This document shows, piece by piece, positions 8,052 to 14,106 of a stretch of DNA of 14,106 bases. Every line of letters begins with the position of its first letter. Positions within the stretch are counted from its first letter, which is position 1. The notes beneath the pieces are model-generated. The model was not told the DNA's origin. It searched no databases and worked only from the letters and a program-made list of their open reading frames with translations. This DNA comes from a virus (lineage: Duplodnaviria; Heunggongvirae; Uroviricota; Caudoviricetes). The translations under genes were made by a program, and so were the position numbers. The DNA is taken from IMG/VR virus record IMGVR_UViG_2563366844_000002, positions 1 through 14,106 of that record. One strand, 5' to 3'.

Positions 8052-10175
8052 TTAATCTTCTGCCTCAGGCTGGAACATCATCACGTAAAAAACATGCTGC
8101 TTACCCCCAATTTTGCCGAGCGCCTTTTTCTTGTAACGGCGATCGTTACCCGCTTCCAGCATTCCGGCAGCACTCAACGCGCGGGCAAAGTGGGACGGGT
8201 TAAATCCCTGTGCGATCTCCCCCTCAAACACATGAGGAAACGTGTAAAAACGGAACTCATCATCTTCATTTCTGATACTCCCCTTTCTGTATCCGGCAAG
8301 GTCTTTAATCGGTAAATCACGTTCATCACTGTTTGGGTAAGGAAGGTATCGACTGAACCCGAACGACGACAAAAACGCCTCAGCCTGTTCAACCATCTGT
8401 TTAAATTCCCTGTTACCCGTGCCGAACTCCTTCACCCAGGCATTAAAGTTATGCTGTATTGCGTCCCGGCATTCCTGCGCGGCCCAGCCAGTTACATGAC
8501 CGGAAAGCACAAGCGCAGCCTCCAGTATCGCGAAACGTTCCCCCACGCGGTGGACCTGCTCGCCGTAGCTCTCCGGTATCAGGTTGCGCCACCGTTCGCG
8601 GCATTCCCTTACCGTATCCTTTGCCTCCTGCTGGTGGTCTGCCAGCCATTTAACCCATTCACGACCCGCCGCCCCGTGATTTTCTGTCCAGGCATCTTTT
8701 AACGCGTCTGCGTGCGCCTTTCCGGTGCTGTATTCGTGAAATTGCGTGGCTTTTTCCATCGGAACGTTAAGCAGGCGGACAAGCTGCCCCGCTTTGACTT
8801 TTATCCCCTCCGTTTTGAGGAATGTCTCAACGTCCATTTCTCCGGTGCTGATTGCCACCGTGCGCCAGTGTTTTATCTCCCGGTTGCCGCCGTCCTTCGC
8901 CCCCTGTAATTTCCCGGAGCCGTTAAACAACGTATAGGCTGACGTGGACACCTCCCGCGCGTTTCCGGCCTGACCTATTTCATCCAGGGGTAACAGCCCG
9001 TCGTTGTGTGCCTCTGCCTCGTTGGCGATACCTAACGCCGTTCCGTACCAGGTAAGCCGTTGTGCGTCCGGCTCTCCCCATAAACTTGATGCGATGTTCT
9101 GCGTGGTGGTTTTCCCTGCCGATGACTGTTCGAAAAGATGTACCCCGAAGCCGTCAGCACCAACAAGGCCAATCAAAGGTGCTGACAGTGACGTGGCAAC
9201 ACCCAGCATCATGGACGGATTGCCACCAGCCAGCCGCGCCACGCTGTCACGCCAGCCCTCCGCCGTACCCGCAACCGAATAGCCATTAACAGCGGCACTT
9301 TTTCCGGTAAACAGGATCGGTTTTTCAGAATCACCAATGATTGAACCGTCCGGCATGATGTACGCGCCAAAATGCCAGCCTGTTGTTGTGCTTAGCTGCC
9401 ATTCCTCATGGCTTCCGCTTAACTGCATCCAGTCAGCCAGGATAGCCCTGTATTTGCCATTTGTTGTCACGTTCAGCCCGTGATCTTTAAGCAACCGCCA
9501 GCCGTCACGGTCGCCAATGCCACCACACGGGATCGCCATTGTGATGACTTCATGGTTTGCTAATTTTTTCCAGCGCATCACGCGGTAATGTTCTTTACCG
9601 ATCGTCCCCGTTCCCAGTAGTTCAAGCGGAGAACATAACCACGTCTCAGGCCGGATAATTTCGCCTGACTGCTTATCCACTTTGGGCGTTACCCAGAAAA
9701 CACCATCGACGCGACTTTCAACGCGGGGCTTTAATTCATCATCCTGATAGCATGGCTCTTTTTTCTTTACAGGCAGTTCAACTACCTTTTTCTTTTCCGC
9801 CAGCTCTGCCCGTTCACGTTCCAGATATTCACGCCAGTTCTCCCGTTTCTGGCTGTGCATTCCTTCAGGGTAATAATCAGCATCCCTGACACCTGCCGCT
9901 GCCAGTTTCTGCCCGATGGTATTAACAACCCCCGGACGCAATAACCCCGCCTGATAGAGACGCACGCGATAGCGCCCGTCCGGTACGATTTGCAGCTTAT
10001 CCAGTTCGGATAACTGCTGCTCACCAAGCCACACAGGAGGCACGTTATCGCCAGCCAGTCGCCCGTCCTGTTCCTGCCACTGCTTCGCATGTGCCCACGC
10101 ATCACTACCCGCAAAAATGATGACTTCCGTCATTTTGTCACGCGGCTGGTGTTTTAAATTTGGCGCTTTTTTCAT
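8052..10175 (-). CDS. Replication protein, primase/helicase-like with P-loop NTPase (Pri-Rep-like)
   Basis: About 707 aa from the ATG at 10175-10173 (preceded by GGAGAGAG). Walker A-like motif SSAGKTT in the central region and an N-terminal region that looks toprim/primase-like. ATGA overlap with the upstream 99-aa ORF. Confidence 0.75.
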   Translation of the reverse strand: MKKAPNLKHQPRDKMTEVIIFAGSDAWAHAKQWQEQDGRLAGDNVPPVWLGEQQLSELDKLQIVPDGRYRVRLYQAGLLRPGVVNTIGQKLAAAGVRDADYYPEGMHSQKRENWREYLERERAELAEKKKVVELPVKKKEPCYQDDELKPRVESRVDGVFWVTPKVDKQSGEIIRPETWLCSPLELLGTGTIGKEHYRVMRWKKLANHEVITMAIPCGGIGDRDGWRLLKDHGLNVTTNGKYRAILADWMQLSGSHEEWQLSTTTGWHFGAYIMPDGSIIGDSEKPILFTGKSAAVNGYSVAGTAEGWRDSVARLAGGNPSMMLGVATSLSAPLIGLVGADGFGVHLFEQSSAGKTTTQNIASSLWGEPDAQRLTWYGTALGIANEAEAHNDGLLPLDEIGQAGNAREVSTSAYTLFNGSGKLQGAKDGGNREIKHWRTVAISTGEMDVETFLKTEGIKVKAGQLVRLLNVPMEKATQFHEYSTGKAHADALKDAWTENHGAAGREWVKWLADHQQEAKDTVRECRERWRNLIPESYGEQVHRVGERFAILEAALVLSGHVTGWAAQECRDAIQHNFNAWVKEFGTGNREFKQMVEQAEAFLSSFGFSRYLPYPNSDERDLPIKDLAGYRKGSIRNEDDEFRFYTFPHVFEGEIAQGFNPSHFARALSAAGMLEAGNDRRYKKKALGKIGGKQHVFYVMMFQPEAED

Positions 10176-10471
10176 TTCTGCTCTCTCCACGCGGCAATCA
10201 TGTTTTTCAGTTCCTGTAGTTTTTTATCAACATCCATACATGACACATGGTTATTTCTGGAAAGCGGGATTTCCCGCCGGAATCTGCAAATAAAGATCTC
10301 CACGTTCAGCGAACTATGAAATGAATAGCCATCACGAATAAAATACACACGGTCAAACATCAGTCCTTTTACCGTTACTCTGTTACCGTTCTTATCCAGA
10401 TAAATAGCGCCGGGGATAATTTTGGGGTGTGCATAACCGCTGGCAGTCAAGCCAGATAAATATGTTCTCAT
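10172..10471 (-). CDS. Hypothetical 99-aa basic protein (AT-rich gene)
   Basis: ATG at 10471-10469 with GGGGA upstream. Stop overlaps the primase start (ATGA). Local GC is visibly lower than flanking genes. No family recognised. Confidence 0.55.
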   Translation of the reverse strand: MRTYLSGLTASGYAHPKIIPGAIYLDKNGNRVTVKGLMFDRVYFIRDGYSFHSSLNVEIFICRFRREIPLSRNNHVSCMDVDKKLQELKNMIAAWREQK

Positions 10472-10477
10472 GATTAT

Positions 10478-10798
10478 TTATCCCCGATTTGAATCAGTAT
10501 TCGCTTTCTTTATGGCATTTAATGCATCTGCAGCATTTTCAATGGTGCACCGTAACGAAATATCAAACTGCCCAAGCATTGCCAGTAACAAACCGATATT
10601 ACCCATATCAATGCGCATAGCCTTTTCGTCATAGTCCTCATTTTCTGACGCATGCCACATCAGGCTACCAATTGACGCAATACCCATTGATATATTGTCA
10701 GTAGCCCCATACGCAGCGGAATAAACCTTTTTAGCAATATCATGCTCACAGTTAAAATGCGGATTAATCAGGTACTGGTAATTTGACATATCAGGCAT
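10478..10798 (-). CDS. Hypothetical 106-aa acidic protein (AT-rich gene)
   Basis: ATG at 10798-10796 preceded by AGGGGG at SD distance; 8-nt overlap with the upstream small ORF. No family recognised. Confidence 0.55.
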   Translation of the reverse strand: MPDMSNYQYLINPHFNCEHDIAKKVYSAAYGATDNISMGIASIGSLMWHASENEDYDEKAMRIDMGNIGLLLAMLGQFDISLRCTIENAADALNAIKKANTDSNRG

Positions 10799-10994
10799 GG
10801 CACACCCCCTGACGAATACGGGCGGCGAATACCATCACGCAGCCAGCCGGGGATTGCTGGCGTGCTTCCTGTTCGCTGGTGGCCTCAATGGTAATCACGC
10901 GCGGTTGTGCCGTGCTCAGGGCGATAAAACGCCAGATGTATTTATTCAGGTTGTGCGAGTCCCGCCCTTGCGGGTGTGTGGTATGATTTAACAT
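10791..10994 (-). CDS. Possible 67-aa protein (3' portion of the long ORF 10791..11456)
   Basis: Internal ATG at 10994-10992 is preceded by GAGG with a 5-nt spacer. Its stop overlaps the start of the 106-aa ORF. The upstream part of the 221-aa ORF is rejected (see noticed_but_rejected). Confidence 0.35.
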   Translation of the reverse strand: MLNHTTHPQGRDSHNLNKYIWRFIALSTAQPRVITIEATSEQEARQQSPAGCVMVFAARIRQGVCHA

Positions 10995-11029
10995 AGCTAC
11001 CTCGATACTGTTGCTATCGTTGGTGGTTA

Positions 11030-11064
11030 GAAGCCCGGTTAGTGTTCCCGCACTGCCGGGCTTC
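11030..11064. promoter_or_regulatory. Inverted repeat GAAGCCCGG-N17-CCGGGCTTC in the divergent regulatory region
   Basis: 9-bp perfect arms at 11030-11038 and 11056-11064. No U-run on either side, so it is more likely a protein-binding site or RNA structure than a terminator. Confidence 0.3.
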
Positions 11065-11094
11065 GCTGTATTTAATGGTTGCGTATTTTTAATG

Positions 11095-11139
11095 TGGTAC
11101 GTACCATTTGATTTCAGTTTATAACGATGGTACGTACCA
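11095..11139. promoter_or_regulatory. Two identical 12-bp perfect palindromes TGGTACGTACCA (operator candidates)
   Basis: Copies at 11095-11106 and 11128-11139, centres 33 bp apart. The second abuts the ATG of the plus-strand RHH gene at 11140. AT-rich -10-like hexamers on both strands lie between them (around 11118-11125). Confidence 0.6.
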
Positions 11140-11322
11140 ATGCAAGAAGAAAATGTGAAACCAAAATTTGATCGCTCCGGCAGCACAAAGAAAAACATCC
11201 GCTTCGAAGACACATTGTTGCAACAAATTAACGAAGTTGCAGGGCCTGGTAATTTCAGCTCATGGGTAAAAAATGCTTGTCGTGATAAGCTACGCAAAGA
11301 AGGCATAGAACCCAAAGGCTGA
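11140..11322 (+). CDS. Small ribbon-helix-helix-like DNA-binding protein (putative regulator), divergent from the replication operon
   Basis: 60 aa; KKNIRFEDTLLQQINEVAG...NFSSWVKNACRDKLRKEG fits a beta-strand plus two-helix RHH layout. It has its own downstream plus-strand terminator at 11417-11446. No clear SD, so possibly leaderless. Confidence 0.5.
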   Translation: MQEENVKPKFDRSGSTKKNIRFEDTLLQQINEVAGPGNFSSWVKNACRDKLRKEGIEPKG

Positions 11323-11416
11323 CAGCCAACCAGCAAGCCAGCACACTGATCACATTGCCCACCAGCCGCAAATGTGGCATTGTTGGTGATGCGTTCAAGT
11401 TTAGTGTGTATCCATT

Positions 11417-11446
11417 GGCGACCGCCCCCGGTCGCCTTTGTTTTAT
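11417..11446 (+). terminator. Rho-independent terminator downstream of the RHH gene
   Basis: Stem GGCGACCG (11417-11424) / CGGTCGCC (11429-11436) with a 4-nt loop, followed by TTTGTTTTAT (11437-11446). There is no U-run in the minus orientation. Confidence 0.6.
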
Positions 11447-11461
11447 GTGCCATCACTCCCC

Positions 11462-11665
11462 CTATGCTGCCTTACCTGAATTAACTCGGTCACGGTTTTG
11501 CACCCAGTCCATAACTTCGGAAAGCAACCAACCTACAGAACGCCCACCAAGATTACGGCGAGACGGAAAGCTCCCTTTTTTCTCCAGTTCATAGCGAGTG
11601 GTACGGCTAACCCCGGTTAACTTACTGCATTCAGCCTCACGGATTATGCGGTCAAATTGAGCCAT
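11462..11665 (-). CDS. alpA: AlpA-family transcriptional regulator
   Basis: From the ATG at 11665-11663 the 67-aa product MAQFDRIIREAECSKLTGVSRTTRYELEKKGSFPSRRNLGGRSVGWLLSEVMDWVQNR has the typical AlpA HTH pattern. Start is preceded by GGGGGGAGTG. Confidence 0.8.
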   Translation of the reverse strand: MAQFDRIIREAECSKLTGVSRTTRYELEKKGSFPSRRNLGGRSVGWLLSEVMDWVQNRDRVNSGKAA

Positions 11666-11675
11666 CACTCCCCCC

Positions 11676-11864
11676 TTACACCGTCTGCGTTCTGCGAGTG
11701 GATGCAAGATAAGCATCGAGATCAGTGCGCATATACAGCACTTTGCGCCCCAGCTTATGAAAAGGGATTTTTACCTTGCCAGTACACGCCCAGTTAGCAA
11801 GAGTCTGGACACTTACCCCCAAATGCTCGGCAGCTTCTTTGCGGGTCATCTTTTCTAAATGCAT
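11676..11864 (-). CDS. Excisionase-family (MerR-like HTH) DNA-binding protein
   Basis: KEAAEHLGVSVQTLANWACTGKVKIPFHKLGRKVLYMRTDLDAYLAS fits the excisionase/HTH_17 pattern. ATG at 11864 is preceded by GGTGA; alternative starts are GTG at 11873 or ATG at 11849. Confidence 0.7.
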   Translation of the reverse strand: MHLEKMTRKEAAEHLGVSVQTLANWACTGKVKIPFHKLGRKVLYMRTDLDAYLASTRRTQTV

Positions 11865-11936
11865 GAGTATCACCGTATACTTCTGATTAAGAACAGGTAT
11901 ACGTTATTTAGCGATGGGGAAGTCTTGAAGACAGGA

Positions 11937-12005: not shown

Positions 12006-12692
12006 TTATTCTTTGTCTCCAATAACTAACTTAAAATCCCTGTTTTTTTGCGGGGATTTTGGATTCATCCCCGACTCCTTAAGCCATCTCTCTATAGTCC
12101 CAACTACAGGGACATCATTCCATTTATTGCGTAAGTGCGCGTATATCTCTGCGGATAGCCCGGGTAAACTGGCATTAGGGTATTTTTTCCAAGTGTTACA
12201 AGCTATAGATAACGCTGTTGATTTATGCCTGTTTGTTTTTCCTTTCTTTGCTTTACTACGGTCTTCACTGATAATTTTCTTTACATTAGCTATATCACGT
12301 ACTGATTTTAATAAATTCTCCGACACTAAAATCGCATATCTTTCACGTAACTGATCTGCAAGTCTGTTGAAACCAAGAACTTCAAATATAATGGCAGCTT
12401 TCAAAATATCATTGAATTCTGAATATGCACTATTAAATTTTTTATCAAAATCATCTCCATATCCGGCACATACAGAAATATTAACCTTTAAATCCTTATT
12501 TTCTATCTCTGACGATAATGATAATCTTTCCTCCAGAGACATTTTAGATGGTGTGATATTTGCCATATCGCATATCGTTTTTTTTACAAAAGAAGACGCC
12601 AGTTCATCTCTAATATAATCTGCAATAGTATTCATATCCTTCGCATCATTATGGTCAAATTCTATTGCAGCAATGATTTTATTTTCTGACAT
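12006..12692 (-). CDS. Hypothetical 228-aa protein, strongly AT-rich (putative accessory/cargo gene)
   Basis: ATG at 12692-12690 preceded by GGTGG; start overlaps the integrase stop by 14 nt. GC is markedly lower than the rest of the element by eye. No family recognised; the C-terminal third may be helix-rich/HTH-like (weak impression). Confidence 0.7.
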   Translation of the reverse strand: MSENKIIAAIEFDHNDAKDMNTIADYIRDELASSFVKKTICDMANITPSKMSLEERLSLSSEIENKDLKVNISVCAGYGDDFDKKFNSAYSEFNDILKAAIIFEVLGFNRLADQLRERYAILVSENLLKSVRDIANVKKIISEDRSKAKKGKTNRHKSTALSIACNTWKKYPNASLPGLSAEIYAHLRNKWNDVPVVGTIERWLKESGMNPKSPQKNRDFKLVIGDKE

Positions 12693-14106
12693 TCAAACCA
12701 CCATTTGAATTAACGATACTAAATAGTAATGCGCGTTTCTCACTGTCACTCATACTCTCCAGTGCGGAAAGCAATTGCGCATCGATAGATTTTTTACTCT
12801 CCACCAGCCCGGCATGTTCCAGAATTGCCCGTTCTATCCGTGACGCTGGCTCCAGCAGTTCATCAGCACCAAAATGTAAATACCCCTGCGTTACGTCAGC
12901 ACTTCGCATAGTACGGTGATTCATCAGGCGCTTGAGGATGTAATTGCCCACGCCCACCAGTTCGGCAACCGTTCCGAACGTCCGGCGTGCATCGTGCCAT
13001 TTGAATGGTACAGGGGAGAGCATTTCATCGTTCGACTCTGGAACAGTAGCCGCGCTTATCCGGTCTATGATGTGCCGTGTTTCCTGAATCACTCCCTTCA
13101 CACCAGGAAACACCAGAACATCATCAGCGTTTTTTATTTTCAGTCGGCGGTGGAACATTTCCCGCAACGTATCAGTAATCGGTAATTCGAGCGGATCCCC
13201 GTTTTTCGTGGTGTCTATCCAGAAAAAACGACCGCCCATATTCACGCGATCCCACGTAAGGCCAAAAATTTCTGATTTCCTCAGTCCGGTAAAAAGCGCC
13301 ATTTCCACGGCATCGCATACCGTCACCGCTATATCATCCCTTTCCTGTTCGCCCTGGTCGCGCACAGCAGCTACAGCAGCAAACCAGCGGGGAAAATCAT
13401 GCAGGCGGATACGTTCCGTTTTTCTTACCGTTCCGTGCCACTGGCGCTTGGTGCTCAGTACCAGAGTCGGCGGATCCGGTAAAAGAGTATTACCCGCATC
13501 ATCACGGTAATGATCATGCGCAAACCGACACACAGCACGTAGCGCACGCGCCCATAAATCGGCCTGTGCCTTGCTTCCTGTACCAACCCCAGCCCGTAAC
13601 GTGGTTTTATCAGCACCGAACCATACAGCCCCATCAGTGATGGCCTTATGCCGTTGTTCCACCCGTTCGCGGGAAATACTGGCGAGGGTATGGGCCATCC
13701 AGTCACCGGAATAATTCTGTAATATGCTGCGGTACTGTTTTTCTGTGGCGGGTTTCAGGCGGTGGCCACGATTTTTTACGTAGGCGTCAATCGCCTCACT
13801 CAGCGTTATCATGGCCTTGTTGTTAGTGCGCTTTGCTATGTTCGGATTTATCCCCGTTGTGGCGACTTCGCCAAGGAGTTCCATAGCTTTAGCCCTGGCA
13901 TTATCCACGCTCAGATCAGGAAAACGCCCCAGCGTTGCACGAATAAATTTTCCGTTACGCTTACGGGAAATGCAGAAACTTTTCACACCAGACGAACCTA
14001 CACGGACACGCAGCCCGTTAACCTCCGTATCACCATATTCGACCTGTCCATGTTCCGGCGTTGGCAGTTCTGCAATTTTTACTTTAGAGAATCTGAATAA
14101 TTTCAC
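12679..14106 (-). CDS. int: Tyrosine integrase (phage integrase family); 5' end at or beyond the window edge
   Basis: N-terminal arm-type pattern (KIAELPTPEHGQVEYGDTEVNGLRVRV...KSFCISRKRNGKFIRATLGRFPDLSVDNARAKA) and C-terminal catalytic residues (R in TGLRKSE, H-x-x-R in HDARRTF, Tyr in GYLHF). The ORF is open to position 14106, where the first codon is GTG, so the true start may lie outside the window. Confidence 0.9.
   Translation of the reverse strand: MKLFRFSKVKIAELPTPEHGQVEYGDTEVNGLRVRVGSSGVKSFCISRKRNGKFIRATLGRFPDLSVDNARAKAMELLGEVATTGINPNIAKRTNNKAMITLSEAIDAYVKNRGHRLKPATEKQYRSILQNYSGDWMAHTLASISRERVEQRHKAITDGAVWFGADKTTLRAGVGTGSKAQADLWARALRAVCRFAHDHYRDDAGNTLLPDPPTLVLSTKRQWHGTVRKTERIRLHDFPRWFAAVAAVRDQGEQERDDIAVTVCDAVEMALFTGLRKSEIFGLTWDRVNMGGRFFWIDTTKNGDPLELPITDTLREMFHRRLKIKNADDVLVFPGVKGVIQETRHIIDRISAATVPESNDEMLSPVPFKWHDARRTFGTVAELVGVGNYILKRLMNHRTMRSADVTQGYLHFGADELLEPASRIERAILEHAGLVESKKSIDAQLLSALESMSDSEKRALLFSIVNSNGGLNVRK

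What the first reader, a model, noticed from the sequence alone, without database searches (positions are those of the whole stretch)
10995..11446. Divergent control region: twin 12-bp palindromes abutting a small RHH gene with its own terminator
Two identical perfect palindromes TGGTACGTACCA, 33 bp centre to centre, sit between the plus-strand RHH-like gene and the minus-strand replication operon, with a further 9-bp-arm inverted repeat (11030-11064) nearby. The second palindrome touches the RHH start codon, suggesting autoregulation. This looks like a repressor-operator switch (analogous to Stl/Str in SaPIs) that a helper phage would need to break. An RHH master repressor is not the textbook arrangement for enterobacterial islands as I recall them, where AlpA activation is emphasised.
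Basis: partly seen in the sequence, partly recalled or inferred. Interest (0 to 1): 0.55.

Follow-up and report, generated by a model that had tools for sequence, protein, structure and literature searches.

The report
Swappable repressor-operator cassette in phage satellites
A small DNA-binding protein gene and its two palindromic binding sites sit over the promoters that drive the replication genes of an E. coli phage satellite, and together with a previously unnoticed antisense RNA they look like the "off switch" that nobody has yet described for this class of island.

Summary
No such pair arose in 20,000 shuffles.

The window is a capsid-forming PICI. The gene belongs to the YlcI/YnfO (DUF3950) family, is under purifying selection, and has a ribbon-helix-helix (RHH) architecture; the fold evidence is moderate.

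In about 100 related loci the same slot holds at least 12 different RHH/operator cassettes, each with its own repeated palindrome. The sites track the RHH type, not AlpA or the primase. They cover the predicted leftward promoter (icd-like/replication operon) and the RHH's own promoter. An autoregulated repressor-operator switch is therefore well supported in silico.

The "helper phage must break it" part is not supported. Published work shows that AlpA overexpression alone induces such islands.

The 9-bp inverted repeat is not an operator. It is the terminator of a conserved plus-strand RNA, SymR-like and below the Rfam threshold, antisense to the icd-like ribosome-binding site, with strong covariation.

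The RHH "own terminator" belongs to a second conserved promoter-plus-terminator unit.

The prototype island EcCICFT073 carries the same module.

The parts
10791..10994 (-). icd-like gene (67 aa), the first gene of the leftward replication/packaging operon
   Evidence: NCBIfam NF033153 phage_ICD_like, 69.8 bits against a cutoff of 25. PGAP annotates the same ORF in L001. An SD (GAGG) lies 7 nt upstream of the ATG.
10979..10987 (+). Candidate extended -10 (TGGTATGAT) of the antisense RNA, embedded in the icd-like coding sequence
   Evidence: Read directly from the sequence. An equivalent TATGCT/TATGAT hexamer lies 7-12 nt before the start-codon complement in relatives. The geometry matches the symR promoter, which lies inside symE (PMC1891008). 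Inferred; no TSS data.
10995..11076 (+). Candidate cis-antisense small RNA (SymR-like). Stem-loop 1 (10995-11028) covers the icd-like SD.
   Evidence: Rfam symR: 34.9 bits, E 0.0017, below the gathering score of 61; the same place and strand in 8 relatives scores 28.7-41 bits. RNAalifold: 15 pairs, 9 with compensatory changes. 97.1% of cells are paired, and 0/500 shuffles reach the observed value on any of the five measures. 60 G-U pairs against 1 A-C, and 466 vs 407 of 480 cells paired on + vs -. MFE -38.2 kcal/mol, z -6.3.
11079..11107 (+). Candidate rightward promoter of the RHH gene: -35 TTGCGT (11079-11084), 17-nt spacer, -10 TACCAT (11102-11107, inside operator 1)
   Evidence: PWM scan gives 8.0 bits, ranked first or second on the + strand in all five window-type loci (TTGCGT or TTGCTT, 17 nt, TACCAT). 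It is below the threshold of the consensus scanner. Inferred.
11095..11106 (.). Operator 1, perfect palindrome TGGTACGTACCA
   Evidence: The core GGTACGTACC is conserved in L014, L065 and L097. It is TGGTA-GT/AC-TACCA in L013 and L016, and GGTAATTACC in L019.
11116..11123 (-). Candidate -10 region of the leftward promoter (TAAACT / TATAAA on the minus strand)
   Evidence: PWM scan: TTGCAT-18-TAAACT 7.9 bits in the window; TTGCAT-16-TATATT 10.7 bits in L016. Inferred.
11128..11139 (.). Operator 2, perfect palindrome TGGTACGTACCA. It fills the spacer of the candidate leftward promoter and abuts the RHH ATG.
   Evidence: The position (33 bp from operator 1, abutting the ATG) is the same in L013, L014, L016, L065 and L097.
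11140..11145 (-). Candidate -35 of the leftward promoter (TTGCAT, the reverse complement of RHH codons 1-2, ATGCAA)
   Evidence: In other short-type cassettes the same position reads TTGACA (ATG/GTG TCAA), as in L045, L019, L007 and L010. In long-type cassettes the leftward -35 is TTGACG, scoring 11-13 bits.
11140..11322 (+). 60-aa ribbon-helix-helix protein, YlcI/YnfO (DUF3950) family; proposed repressor
11355..11383 (+). Conserved promoter-like element: -35 TTGCCC (11355-11360), 17-nt spacer, -10 CATTGT (11378-11383) with TG upstream
   Evidence: TTGCCC or TTGACC, N17, then TATGAT/TATGCT/TATCAT/TATTCT/CATTGT is kept in 41 distinct sequences from 59 of the 96 related regions searched, while the spacer varies.
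11390..11446 (+). Candidate second small RNA ending in the intrinsic terminator (stem 11417-11436, T-run 11437-11446). It also serves as the end point of RHH transcripts.
   Evidence: Terminator scan. Terminator stem 100% paired in 15 variants, 3 of 7 pairs with compensatory changes, 0/500 shuffles for the covariation score. MFE z -3.2. No Rfam family matches.
11462..11716 (-). alpA (the published activator of Gram-negative PICIs), convergent with the RHH gene
   Evidence: Pfam PF05930 Phage_AlpA, 61.7 bits. Its role as activator is taken from PMC6092414.

Best explanation
The 60-aa product of 11140-11322 is a ribbon-helix-helix repressor. One dimer binds each 12-bp palindrome, about three helical turns apart.

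Operator 2 fills the spacer of the leftward promoter that drives the icd-like/replication/capsid operon, and operator 1 lies just downstream of that promoter's start. Bound protein therefore keeps the operon off while the island is quiescent. Operator 1 also contains the -10 of the RHH gene's own promoter, so the protein limits its own synthesis.

Protein plus sites form a self-contained, exchangeable specificity ('immunity') cassette. Many alternative versions occupy the same slot in related islands.

A second lock acts after transcription. A small plus-strand RNA (10995-11076) starts inside the icd-like gene, pairs with the ribosome-binding region of the icd-like mRNA and ends at the 11030-11064 hairpin. 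It blocks translation of any leaky transcript.

Induction comes from AlpA, which the helper phage switches on. AlpA either reads through from upstream or acts at the leftward promoter and overrides the RHH.

Shown by sequence and comparison: the sites, the gene, the cassette co-variation, the RNA structure and its strand. Inferred: binding, repression, promoter positions, and the way AlpA overrides the switch.
For: - The sites are non-random and unique in the window.
- Homologues 73-75% identical from Pluralibacter, Pantoea and a metagenome keep two sites 33 bp apart, the second abutting the ATG. Meanwhile the 21-bp spacer and the ORF have diverged by about 30%.
- The centre of the site changes from CG to GT/AC exactly where beta-strand residue N19 becomes H.
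- Anchoring on the conserved icd-like gene gave 96 loci with 69 distinct control regions. They carry at least 12 different repeated palindromes, each paired with its own YlcI/YnfO-type protein.
- AlpA proteins 90% and 72% identical to the window's sit next to unrelated operators. AlpAs 37-45% identical sit next to the TGGTA-NN-TACCA operators.
- The cassette occurs in 72 of 5426 E. coli genomes at many chromosomal sites.
- In long-type cassettes the best-scoring promoter (11-13 bits, TTGACG-17/18) is leftward and is flanked and filled by the operators. The window type has the same layout with weaker hexamers.
- RHH fold; weak RHH hits.
- Antisense RNA.
Against: - There are no binding, expression or TSS data.
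- The promoters in the window type are weak: 7-8 of 12 consensus positions, and none passed the consensus scanner.
- The RHH gene has no recognisable Shine-Dalgarno sequence.
- AlpA overexpression alone is sufficient to induce EcCICFT073 (PMC6092414). The RHH therefore cannot be an absolute lock.
- The SymR match is below Rfam's gathering score.
Confidence: 0.7

Rival explanations
1. The RHH is a true Stl-like master repressor. It is the primary lock on the island, and a helper-phage protein must bind or displace it to start the cycle.
For: - The gene is arranged divergently from the replication operon, as Stl is.
- The cassette is hypervariable, as expected for a target in an arms race with helpers.
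- The helper-encoded inducer of Gram-negative PICIs is still unidentified (PMC6092414).
- Lambdoid phages, including lambda, encode YlcI/YnfO paralogues next to cos.
Against: - AlpA expressed alone, without any helper, induces excision and runaway replication of EcCICFT073. That island carries the same RHH/operator module.
- Helpers act by raising alpA transcription.
- No operator copy lies near the alpA or int promoters in the window.
- The RHH is not homologous to Stl, which is an HTH protein.
Confidence: 0.2
2. The palindromes are bound by another island protein, either AlpA or the primase/helicase as origin iterons. The small ORF is then an unrelated passenger.
For: AlpA is a DNA-binding activator of the downstream genes. 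Satellite origins often consist of repeats.
Against: - The operators follow the RHH type and not AlpA.
- The same operator family is found beside three different replication proteins: DUF927 in the window and L097; D5_N/DUF5906 in L013; Zn-ribbon primase/Toprim/DUF927 in L016. In L014 there is no primase nearby.
- Operator and beta-strand change together.
- There are only two copies, placed over promoter elements rather than in an AT-rich iteron array.
Confidence: 0.05
3. The RHH is a local safety device for the toxic icd-like gene only, an antitoxin-like transcriptional guard working with the antisense RNA. It is not a regulator of the island life cycle.
For: - Two independent locks (RHH operators and a SymR-like antisense RNA over the RBS) converge on the icd-like gene.
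- SymR is the antitoxin RNA of a toxin gene (PMC1891008).
- Icd-type proteins inhibit cell division. This rests on the family name and on P1 Icd, recalled from established knowledge.
Against: - The icd-like gene overlaps or abuts the downstream genes in one co-oriented string running to the primase and capsid genes. No other strong promoter was detected. Repressing this promoter therefore necessarily silences replication genes as well.
- The toxicity of this icd-like protein is untested.
Confidence: 0.15

Closest known systems
Phage P22 immI region (Mnt and Arc RHH repressors, overlapping divergent promoters Pant/Pmnt, sar antisense RNA). Comparison from established knowledge.
   Same: Small RHH repressors bind short symmetric operators placed inside or over two opposed promoters, with autoregulation. 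A small antisense RNA acts in the same control region. An ungapped alignment to Arc puts N19 and R21 on Arc N11 and R13 (hhalign register).
   Different: There is no significant sequence similarity to Arc (E 0.061, probability 0.9%). Here there is one RHH rather than two. The operators are two separate 12-bp palindromes 33 bp apart, rather than one 21-bp site. The controlled genes are for replication and packaging, not an antirepressor.
Plasmid pMV158 CopG (RHH) plus antisense RNA II, which together control repB. Comparison from established knowledge.
   Same: The logic is dual. An RHH transcriptional repressor sits on a pseudo-palindrome over the promoter, and a small antisense RNA covers the ribosome-binding site of the first replication-operon gene. 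Some family members hit the Pfam RHH_1 (copG family) and CopG_antitoxin models.
   Different: copG is co-transcribed with its target, whereas here the RHH gene is divergent. The window protein itself does not reach the RHH_1 threshold. The host element is a phage satellite rather than a rolling-circle plasmid.
SaPI Stl/Str divergent regulatory pair (Gram-positive PICIs; PMC6092414)
   Same: A repressor gene is transcribed divergently from the excision/replication operon of a phage satellite, with operators in the intergenic region. The repressors are highly divergent alleles among related islands.
   Different: Stl is a helix-turn-helix protein and this one is an RHH. Stl is inactivated by helper proteins, whereas here the published inducer route goes through AlpA, and AlpA alone suffices. 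No helper interaction is known.
SymR/SymE of E. coli K-12 (Rfam RF01809; PMC1891008)
   Same: A cis-antisense RNA of about 77 nt has its promoter inside the target ORF, covers the target's 5' UTR and RBS, and folds into two stem-loops ending in a terminator. The window and 8 relatives give consistent symR hits of 28.7-41 bits.
   Different: Every score is below the gathering score of 61. The target is an icd-like gene, not the AbrB-fold SymE. The location is a phage satellite.
YlcI / YnfO of the E. coli K-12 cryptic prophages DLP12 and Qin, and their homologues next to cos in lambdoid phages
   Same: They belong to the same protein family: NF041551 and PF13132 are above cutoff, and tblastn gives 46-51% identity over residues 15/19-54.
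   Different: They lie in a different genomic context, at the right end of lambdoid genomes beside the small terminase gene. No function has been reported: the search found only papers that mention these genes in passing, and those were not read in full. Whether they have operators was not examined.

Membership tests
YlcI/YnfO family (NCBIfam NF041551) / Pfam DUF3950 (PF13132) | Score above the curated cutoff of the family model | tested here: met
   NF041551 31.1 bits against a cutoff of 30. PF13132 33 bits against a cutoff of 25. PGAP gives the same name in L001 and in 72 E. coli genomes.
Ribbon-helix-helix (Arc/MetJ/CopG) superfamily | N-terminal beta-strand followed by two helices joined by a tight turn with a helix-capping S/T/N | tested here: met
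   AF2 model: extended 17-23, helix 24-34, turn G35-P-G-N-F-S40, helix 39-54. In the monomer model the strand is not called by DSSP.
Ribbon-helix-helix (Arc/MetJ/CopG) superfamily | Detectable homology or structural match to established RHH proteins | tested here: inconclusive
Ribbon-helix-helix (Arc/MetJ/CopG) superfamily | Dimer that inserts a two-stranded sheet into the major groove of a symmetric site | not testable with these tools
   Indirect only: the 12-bp perfect palindromes, and the co-variation of beta-strand residue 19 (N/H) with the central base pairs.
Stl-type master repressor of PICIs | Encoded divergently from the excision/replication operon, with operators in the intergenic region | tested here: met
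Stl-type master repressor of PICIs | Repression relieved by direct binding of a helper-phage protein; deletion gives helper-independent induction | not testable with these tools
   The literature argues for a different route, helper-induced alpA, with AlpA sufficient on its own (PMC6092414).
Stl-type master repressor of PICIs | Homology to Stl/Rpr (helix-turn-helix repressors) | tested here: not met
   No HTH family hit. The architecture is RHH.
SymR RNA (Rfam RF01809) | Covariance-model score at or above the gathering score of 61 bits | tested here: not met
   34.9 bits in the window; 28.7-41 bits in 8 relatives.
SymR RNA (Rfam RF01809) | Cis-antisense to the 5' UTR/RBS of the adjacent gene, with the promoter inside that gene's ORF | tested here: inconclusive
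   The position and strand of the structured RNA are established by G-U asymmetry and covariation. The promoter (TGGTATGAT, 10979-10987) is inferred from sequence only.
Capsid-forming PICI (cf-PICI) of Enterobacterales | int, alpA and primase genes plus the island's own HK97 capsid, protease, portal, head-tail connector, HNH, and small and large terminase genes, with no tail genes | tested here: met
   ORF list and Pfam hits. PGAP annotation of the 98.5%-identical L001. Definition taken from 10.1101/2022.09.08.507074.

The most novel reading that the evidence does not exclude
The hypervariable YlcI/YnfO-type RHH with its operators is the missing maintenance repressor of Gram-negative PICIs and cf-PICIs, the functional equivalent of Stl. 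Its many specificities would define immunity groups of islands. Helper phages would engage it directly, for instance through the YlcI/YnfO paralogue that lambdoid phages carry next to cos, which could poison the island's RHH dimer. Alternatively they would engage it indirectly, through AlpA-driven convergent transcription across the RHH gene. The SymR-like and OOP-like small RNAs would act as back-up locks.
Probability: 0.2. Interest if true: 0.8.

Novelty: new member of a known kind. Interest (0 to 1): 0.62.

Why it matters
How Gram-negative phage-inducible chromosomal islands are kept silent is an acknowledged gap. The founding paper says the existence of a repressor is unclear and leaves only the activator AlpA (PMC6092414). 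[quoted passage not shown]

This analysis assigns that gene a concrete, testable role. It identifies its operators and shows that the gene is one allele of a large exchangeable cassette series. The same module is present in the model island EcCICFT073.

It also gives a first functional context to the uncharacterised YlcI/YnfO (DUF3950) family. It adds two candidate small RNAs to the control region, one of them a distant relative of the type I antitoxin RNA SymR.

All of this can be checked with gel shifts, reporter fusions, Northern blots and one deletion in strains that already exist.

Tried and rejected
- Sequence searches of the PDB with the protein and with two profiles gave nothing significant. 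Foldseek against the PDB was also not significant.
- The genome-contig scan with the single icd-like protein returned only 9 loci. The viral-contig scan with an alignment was needed for depth.
- The HMM built from short-type RHH proteins missed the long-type cassettes, so cassettes were read by position instead. The automatic ORF picker chose wrong starts or frames in several loci, and its protein strings were used only where they agree with the annotation.
- The 221-aa minus-strand ORF 10791-11456, in frame with icd-like, was considered as a longer Icd-like protein. It was rejected because the frame closes inside the intergenic region in other cassettes (read by eye from the L003 sequence), and because the SD, the start codon and the anti-SD loop all point to the 67-aa form. 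PGAP does call a long form in one genome.
- Rfam C4 and isrK, the P4/P1-type immunity RNAs reported for some PICIs (PMC10111431), do not match the window. Nor does int-alpA RNA, although int-alpA RNA is present in L004 and L012.
- AlpA or the primase as the palindrome-binding protein: rejected.
- One literature search was uninformative because of a poor choice of terms.
Full report
**What the window is**

The 14.1-kb window is a phage satellite of the capsid-forming PICI type. All of the following lie on the minus strand:
- a tyrosine integrase (12679-14106);
- an unknown 228-aa gene;
- an excisionase-like HTH gene (11676-11873);
- alpA (11462-11716);
- an icd-like gene (10791-10994);
- a 106-aa gene, a DUF4222 gene and a DUF927 primase/helicase (8052-10190);
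- SSB, HK97-type capsid, protease, portal, head-tail connector, HNH, and small and large terminase genes.

A 98.5%-identical island in E. coli CFSAN064036 is annotated the same way. The only plus-strand gene in this stretch is the 60-aa ORF 11140-11322. It is convergent with alpA and divergent from the icd-like operon.

**Checking the observation**

TGGTACGTACCA occurs exactly twice in the window, even with two mismatches allowed, at 11095-11106 and 11128-11139. The copies are 33 bp apart, and the second ends one base before the ATG. In 20,000 shuffles of the 145-bp intergenic region, none produced a repeated palindromic 12-mer. The 9-bp-arm inverted repeat (11030-11038 / 11056-11064) and the hairpin-plus-T-run at 11417-11446 are also present. 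The description is correct apart from a 2-nt offset.

**The small gene**

- It scores above the curated cutoffs of Pfam DUF3950 and NCBIfam YlcI/YnfO.
- Against homologues 73-75% identical from Pluralibacter, Pantoea and a metagenome, differences fall mainly at third codon positions (for example 13/10/38). Synonymous codon changes outnumber non-synonymous ones. It is therefore a coding gene under purifying selection.
- An AlphaFold2 model built on 50 family members (pLDDT 77.6) has an extended segment at 17-23 followed by helices 24-34 and 39-54.
- Foldseek and direct sequence searches of the PDB are not significant.
- A profile search brings up only sub-threshold RHH domains: CdbA, NikR and HicB3.
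- Of the 50 family members, 42 hit DUF3950. A few also hit RHH_1 (best E 2.3e-6), CopG_antitoxin, RHH_5, RHH_6, Arc, HicB and NikA-like.

I accept the RHH assignment as probable. It rests on topology and transitive homology, not on a strong direct match.

**Are the palindromes this protein's sites?**

The close homologues all keep two sites 33 bp apart with the second abutting the ATG, although the 21-bp spacer and the coding sequence have diverged by about 30%.

| Locus | Site 1 | Site 2 |
|---|---|---|
| window | TGGTACGTACCA | TGGTACGTACCA |
| L097 (94% variant) | TGGTACGTACCA | TGGTACGTACCA |
| L014 (Pantoea) | CGGTACGTACCA | CGGTACGTACCA |
| L065 (viral contig) | CGGTACGTACCA | TGGTACGTACCA |
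| L013 (Pluralibacter) | TGGTAGTTACCA | TGGTAACTACCA |
| L016 (metagenome) | TGGTAGTTACCA | TGGTAGTTACCA |

The two loci whose site centre is GT/AC instead of CG are exactly the two whose predicted beta-strand reads TMKHIRF instead of TKKNIRF. A more distant short-type protein (L019) sits beside GGTAATTACC x2.

Anchoring on the conserved icd-like gene gave 9 loci from other Enterobacterales genera and 80 viral-contig loci. With the other fetched loci these yield 96 usable regions and 69 distinct versions of the control region.

The block from the icd-like gene through the hairpin is conserved. Similarity then stops, and at least a dozen unrelated cassettes follow. Each has two or three copies of its own 10-13-bp palindrome or quasi-palindrome: GTGTTAAACAC, TGTGCGCACA, GTGTAAGACAC, GTGTGTTTCA, GTGTACAC, GTGTGGCCCAC, GTGCTATTCAC and others. 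Each also has its own YlcI/YnfO-type protein.

AlpA does not follow the operators. The AlpAs most similar to the window's (90% and 72%) sit next to unrelated cassettes. AlpAs 37-45% identical sit next to TGGTA-NN-TACCA sites. The replication protein does not follow them either.

The window's cassette is found in 72 of 5426 complete E. coli genomes at many chromosomal positions. This is the pattern of a repressor/operator specificity module, comparable to phage immunity regions.

**Where the sites sit relative to promoters**

No site in the intergenic region passes the stringent consensus scan, so I used a position-weight scan and looked for conservation.

- In long-type cassettes the top-scoring promoter (11-13 bits) is leftward: TTGACG or TTGACA, 17-18 nt, then a TAnnnT hexamer. 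One operator lies upstream of the -35, one in the spacer, and one at or after the -10.
- In short-type cassettes the leftward -35 overlaps the RHH start codon. It reads TTGACA, the reverse complement of ATG/GTG-TCAA, in L045, L019, L007 and L010. In the window type it reads TTGCAT, the reverse complement of ATGCAA.
- In the window, operator 2 then fills the spacer, the -10 lies at 11116-11123, and operator 1 lies a few bases downstream of the predicted start.
- A rightward promoter, TTGCGT/TTGCTT-17-TACCAT, is conserved in all five window-type loci. Its -10 is the right half of operator 1.
- The AT-rich TTTATAAC between the sites could alternatively be a rightward -10, giving a very short leader. 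The RHH gene has no Shine-Dalgarno sequence.

These promoter assignments are inferences. What is robust is that in every cassette type the sites lie on the leftward promoter, which is the position of a repressor.

**The 9-bp-arm inverted repeat**

Rfam's only hit in the window is a sub-threshold match to SymR at 10995-11067 on the plus strand (34.9 bits, gathering score 61, E 0.0017). The same place and strand give 28.7-41 bits in eight relatives.

An alignment of 32 distinct versions folds into two hairpins:
- a 5-bp stem whose 7-nt loop, or whose 5' flank in the window type, carries the complement of the icd-like Shine-Dalgarno sequence;

Nine of the 15 pairs show compensatory changes. 97.1% of cells are paired, against 35-55% when the partners are slid, and no shuffle out of 500 reaches the observed value on any of the five measures.

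The strand is settled by wobble pairs. There are 60 G-U against 1 A-C, and 466 against 407 of 480 cells are paired on plus versus minus. The plus strand also folds more stably: -38.2 kcal/mol, z -6.3, against -27.3, z -4.1.

A TGGTATGAT extended -10 lies at 10979-10987 inside the icd-like ORF. This places the start near 10995, the same geometry as symR inside symE (PMC1891008).

I conclude that the repeat is the terminator of a cis-antisense RNA that covers the icd-like ribosome-binding site. It resembles SymR but does not qualify as a member by Rfam's criterion, and its target is different.

**The 'own terminator'**

Between the RHH stop codon and the alpA stop codon, 59 of the 96 regions (41 distinct sequences) carry TTGCCC/TTGACC-N17-TATGAT/TATGCT/CATTGT, then about 45-60 nt, then a GC hairpin with TTTGTTTT. 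This holds regardless of the RHH type and of what lies in between. The hairpin co-varies: 100% paired, and 3 of 7 pairs have double changes.

In the window this unit is 11355-11446. It looks like a second small RNA gene, antisense to whatever is transcribed past alpA. By analogy it resembles lambda OOP (from established knowledge). RHH transcripts would also end there. No Rfam family matches it.

**Link to the literature**

- Fillol-Salom et al. [quoted passage not shown]
- The same paper shows that AlpA is an activator, that helpers raise alpA transcription, and that AlpA overexpression alone causes excision and runaway replication of EcCICFT073.
- The cf-PICI papers confirm the dependence on AlpA and describe the gene downstream of alpA as variable and of unknown function.
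- A survey of PICI organisation mentions Bro-N proteins and C4/isrK-type RNAs in this zone. A term search of that paper found no mention of 'ribbon' or 'antisense'.
- EcCICFT073 itself carries the module: YlcI/YnfO gene, icd-like gene, SymR-like hairpins, leftward TTGACG promoter and GGTGTGGCCCAC operators. The out-of-series locus tags suggest these small genes were added by later re-annotation. That last point is my inference.

**Mechanism and limits**

The best-supported reading has three layers:
- an autoregulated RHH repressor on the leftward promoter;
- an antisense RNA on the first gene's ribosome-binding site;
- AlpA as the overriding inducer.

AlpA alone suffices in a sister island with the same module, and the operator is absent from the alpA and int regions. 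The Stl-like idea that the helper must inactivate this protein is therefore not favoured, though it is not excluded. Lambdoid phages, including lambda, encode YlcI/YnfO paralogues beside cos, which leaves room for cross-talk.

How AlpA overrides the switch is unknown. The candidates are read-through from upstream across the convergent RHH gene, or direct action at the leftward promoter. A weak hairpin on the minus strand at 11334-11318 could attenuate read-through.

**Verdict**

The kind of device is familiar (P22 immI, pMV158 CopG/RNA II). Its presence as an exchangeable cassette in Gram-negative PICIs, including the model island, appears undescribed in the literature I could search, and it addresses an open question. 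The two candidate small RNAs are additional findings.

Noticed in passing
window 10995-11076 (+): A conserved structured RNA lies antisense to the 5' UTR and RBS of the icd-like gene. It gives consistent sub-threshold Rfam symR hits in the window and 8 relatives, with strong covariation and G-U strand asymmetry. L016 appears to share long identical stretches with E. coli SymR (by eye, against the SymR sequence recalled from memory).
   Followed up: yes
window 11355-11446 (+): A conserved promoter-like element (TTGCCC-N17-CATTGT) is followed about 45 nt later by a co-varying intrinsic terminator. It is present in 59 of the 96 related regions searched, whatever the RHH cassette. It is a candidate second small RNA, antisense to transcripts leaving alpA. 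No Rfam family matches.
   Followed up: partly
window 11453 downstream on the minus strand (ORF 10791-11456): Immediately after alpA on the minus strand there is a good SD (GGGGGAG) followed by an ATG opening 'MAHKTKATGGGRQW...'. Similar starts occur in several relatives. In the window the frame stays open for 221 codons and runs in frame into icd-like, and PGAP calls a 135-aa 'Icd-like' form in L097. This is probably chance or annotation noise, but a short real ORF overlapped by the second small RNA is not excluded.
   Followed up: partly
L099 9440-9900 (E. coli CFT073, NC_004431.1 about 1380440-1380900): The model island EcCICFT073 has the same YlcI/YnfO / icd-like divergent module, with its own operators (GGTGTGGCCCAC x2, GTCCCCCACC). 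The small genes carry late, out-of-series locus tags (C_RS30120, C_RS30125, C_RS30800).
   Followed up: partly
phage records H46-H67 (for example NC_049951.1 41615-41731; lambda-type genomes, right end): Lambdoid coliphages, including lambda derivatives, encode a YlcI/YnfO paralogue (46-51% identity over residues 15/19-54). It lies on the minus strand next to cos and is often unannotated. Helpers and islands therefore share this protein family.
   Followed up: no
L002, L003, L009, L011, L012 and many viral-contig loci, between the antisense-RNA terminator and the first operator: Long-type cassettes carry an extra inverted repeat, CACCTTG-N6-CAAGGTG, whose right arm merges into the first operator. 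It is absent from the window, and its role is unknown.
   Followed up: no
L012 264-329 and L004 117-185: Rfam int-alpA RNA (RF02996) is present above threshold in two related islands (62.8 and 49.8 bits). It is not detectable in the window.
   Followed up: no
L002/L073/L079 versus L021/L084/L059 (101-aa long-type proteins): These two cassette groups share almost identical C-terminal two-thirds. They differ in the N-terminal strand region (SQSLTARIPHDVIEG vs SQLTTVRVPLDVMQG) and have different operators (TGTAAG-type vs GTGTGTTTCA). This suggests that specificity is swapped by recombination within the gene.
   Followed up: no
window 11676-11873 (-) and 11462-11716 (-): Two tandem small HTH genes precede the RHH cassette: an excisionase-like HTH_17 gene and alpA. 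Their ORFs overlap as listed. PGAP starts alpA later, giving a 67-aa protein.
   Followed up: no
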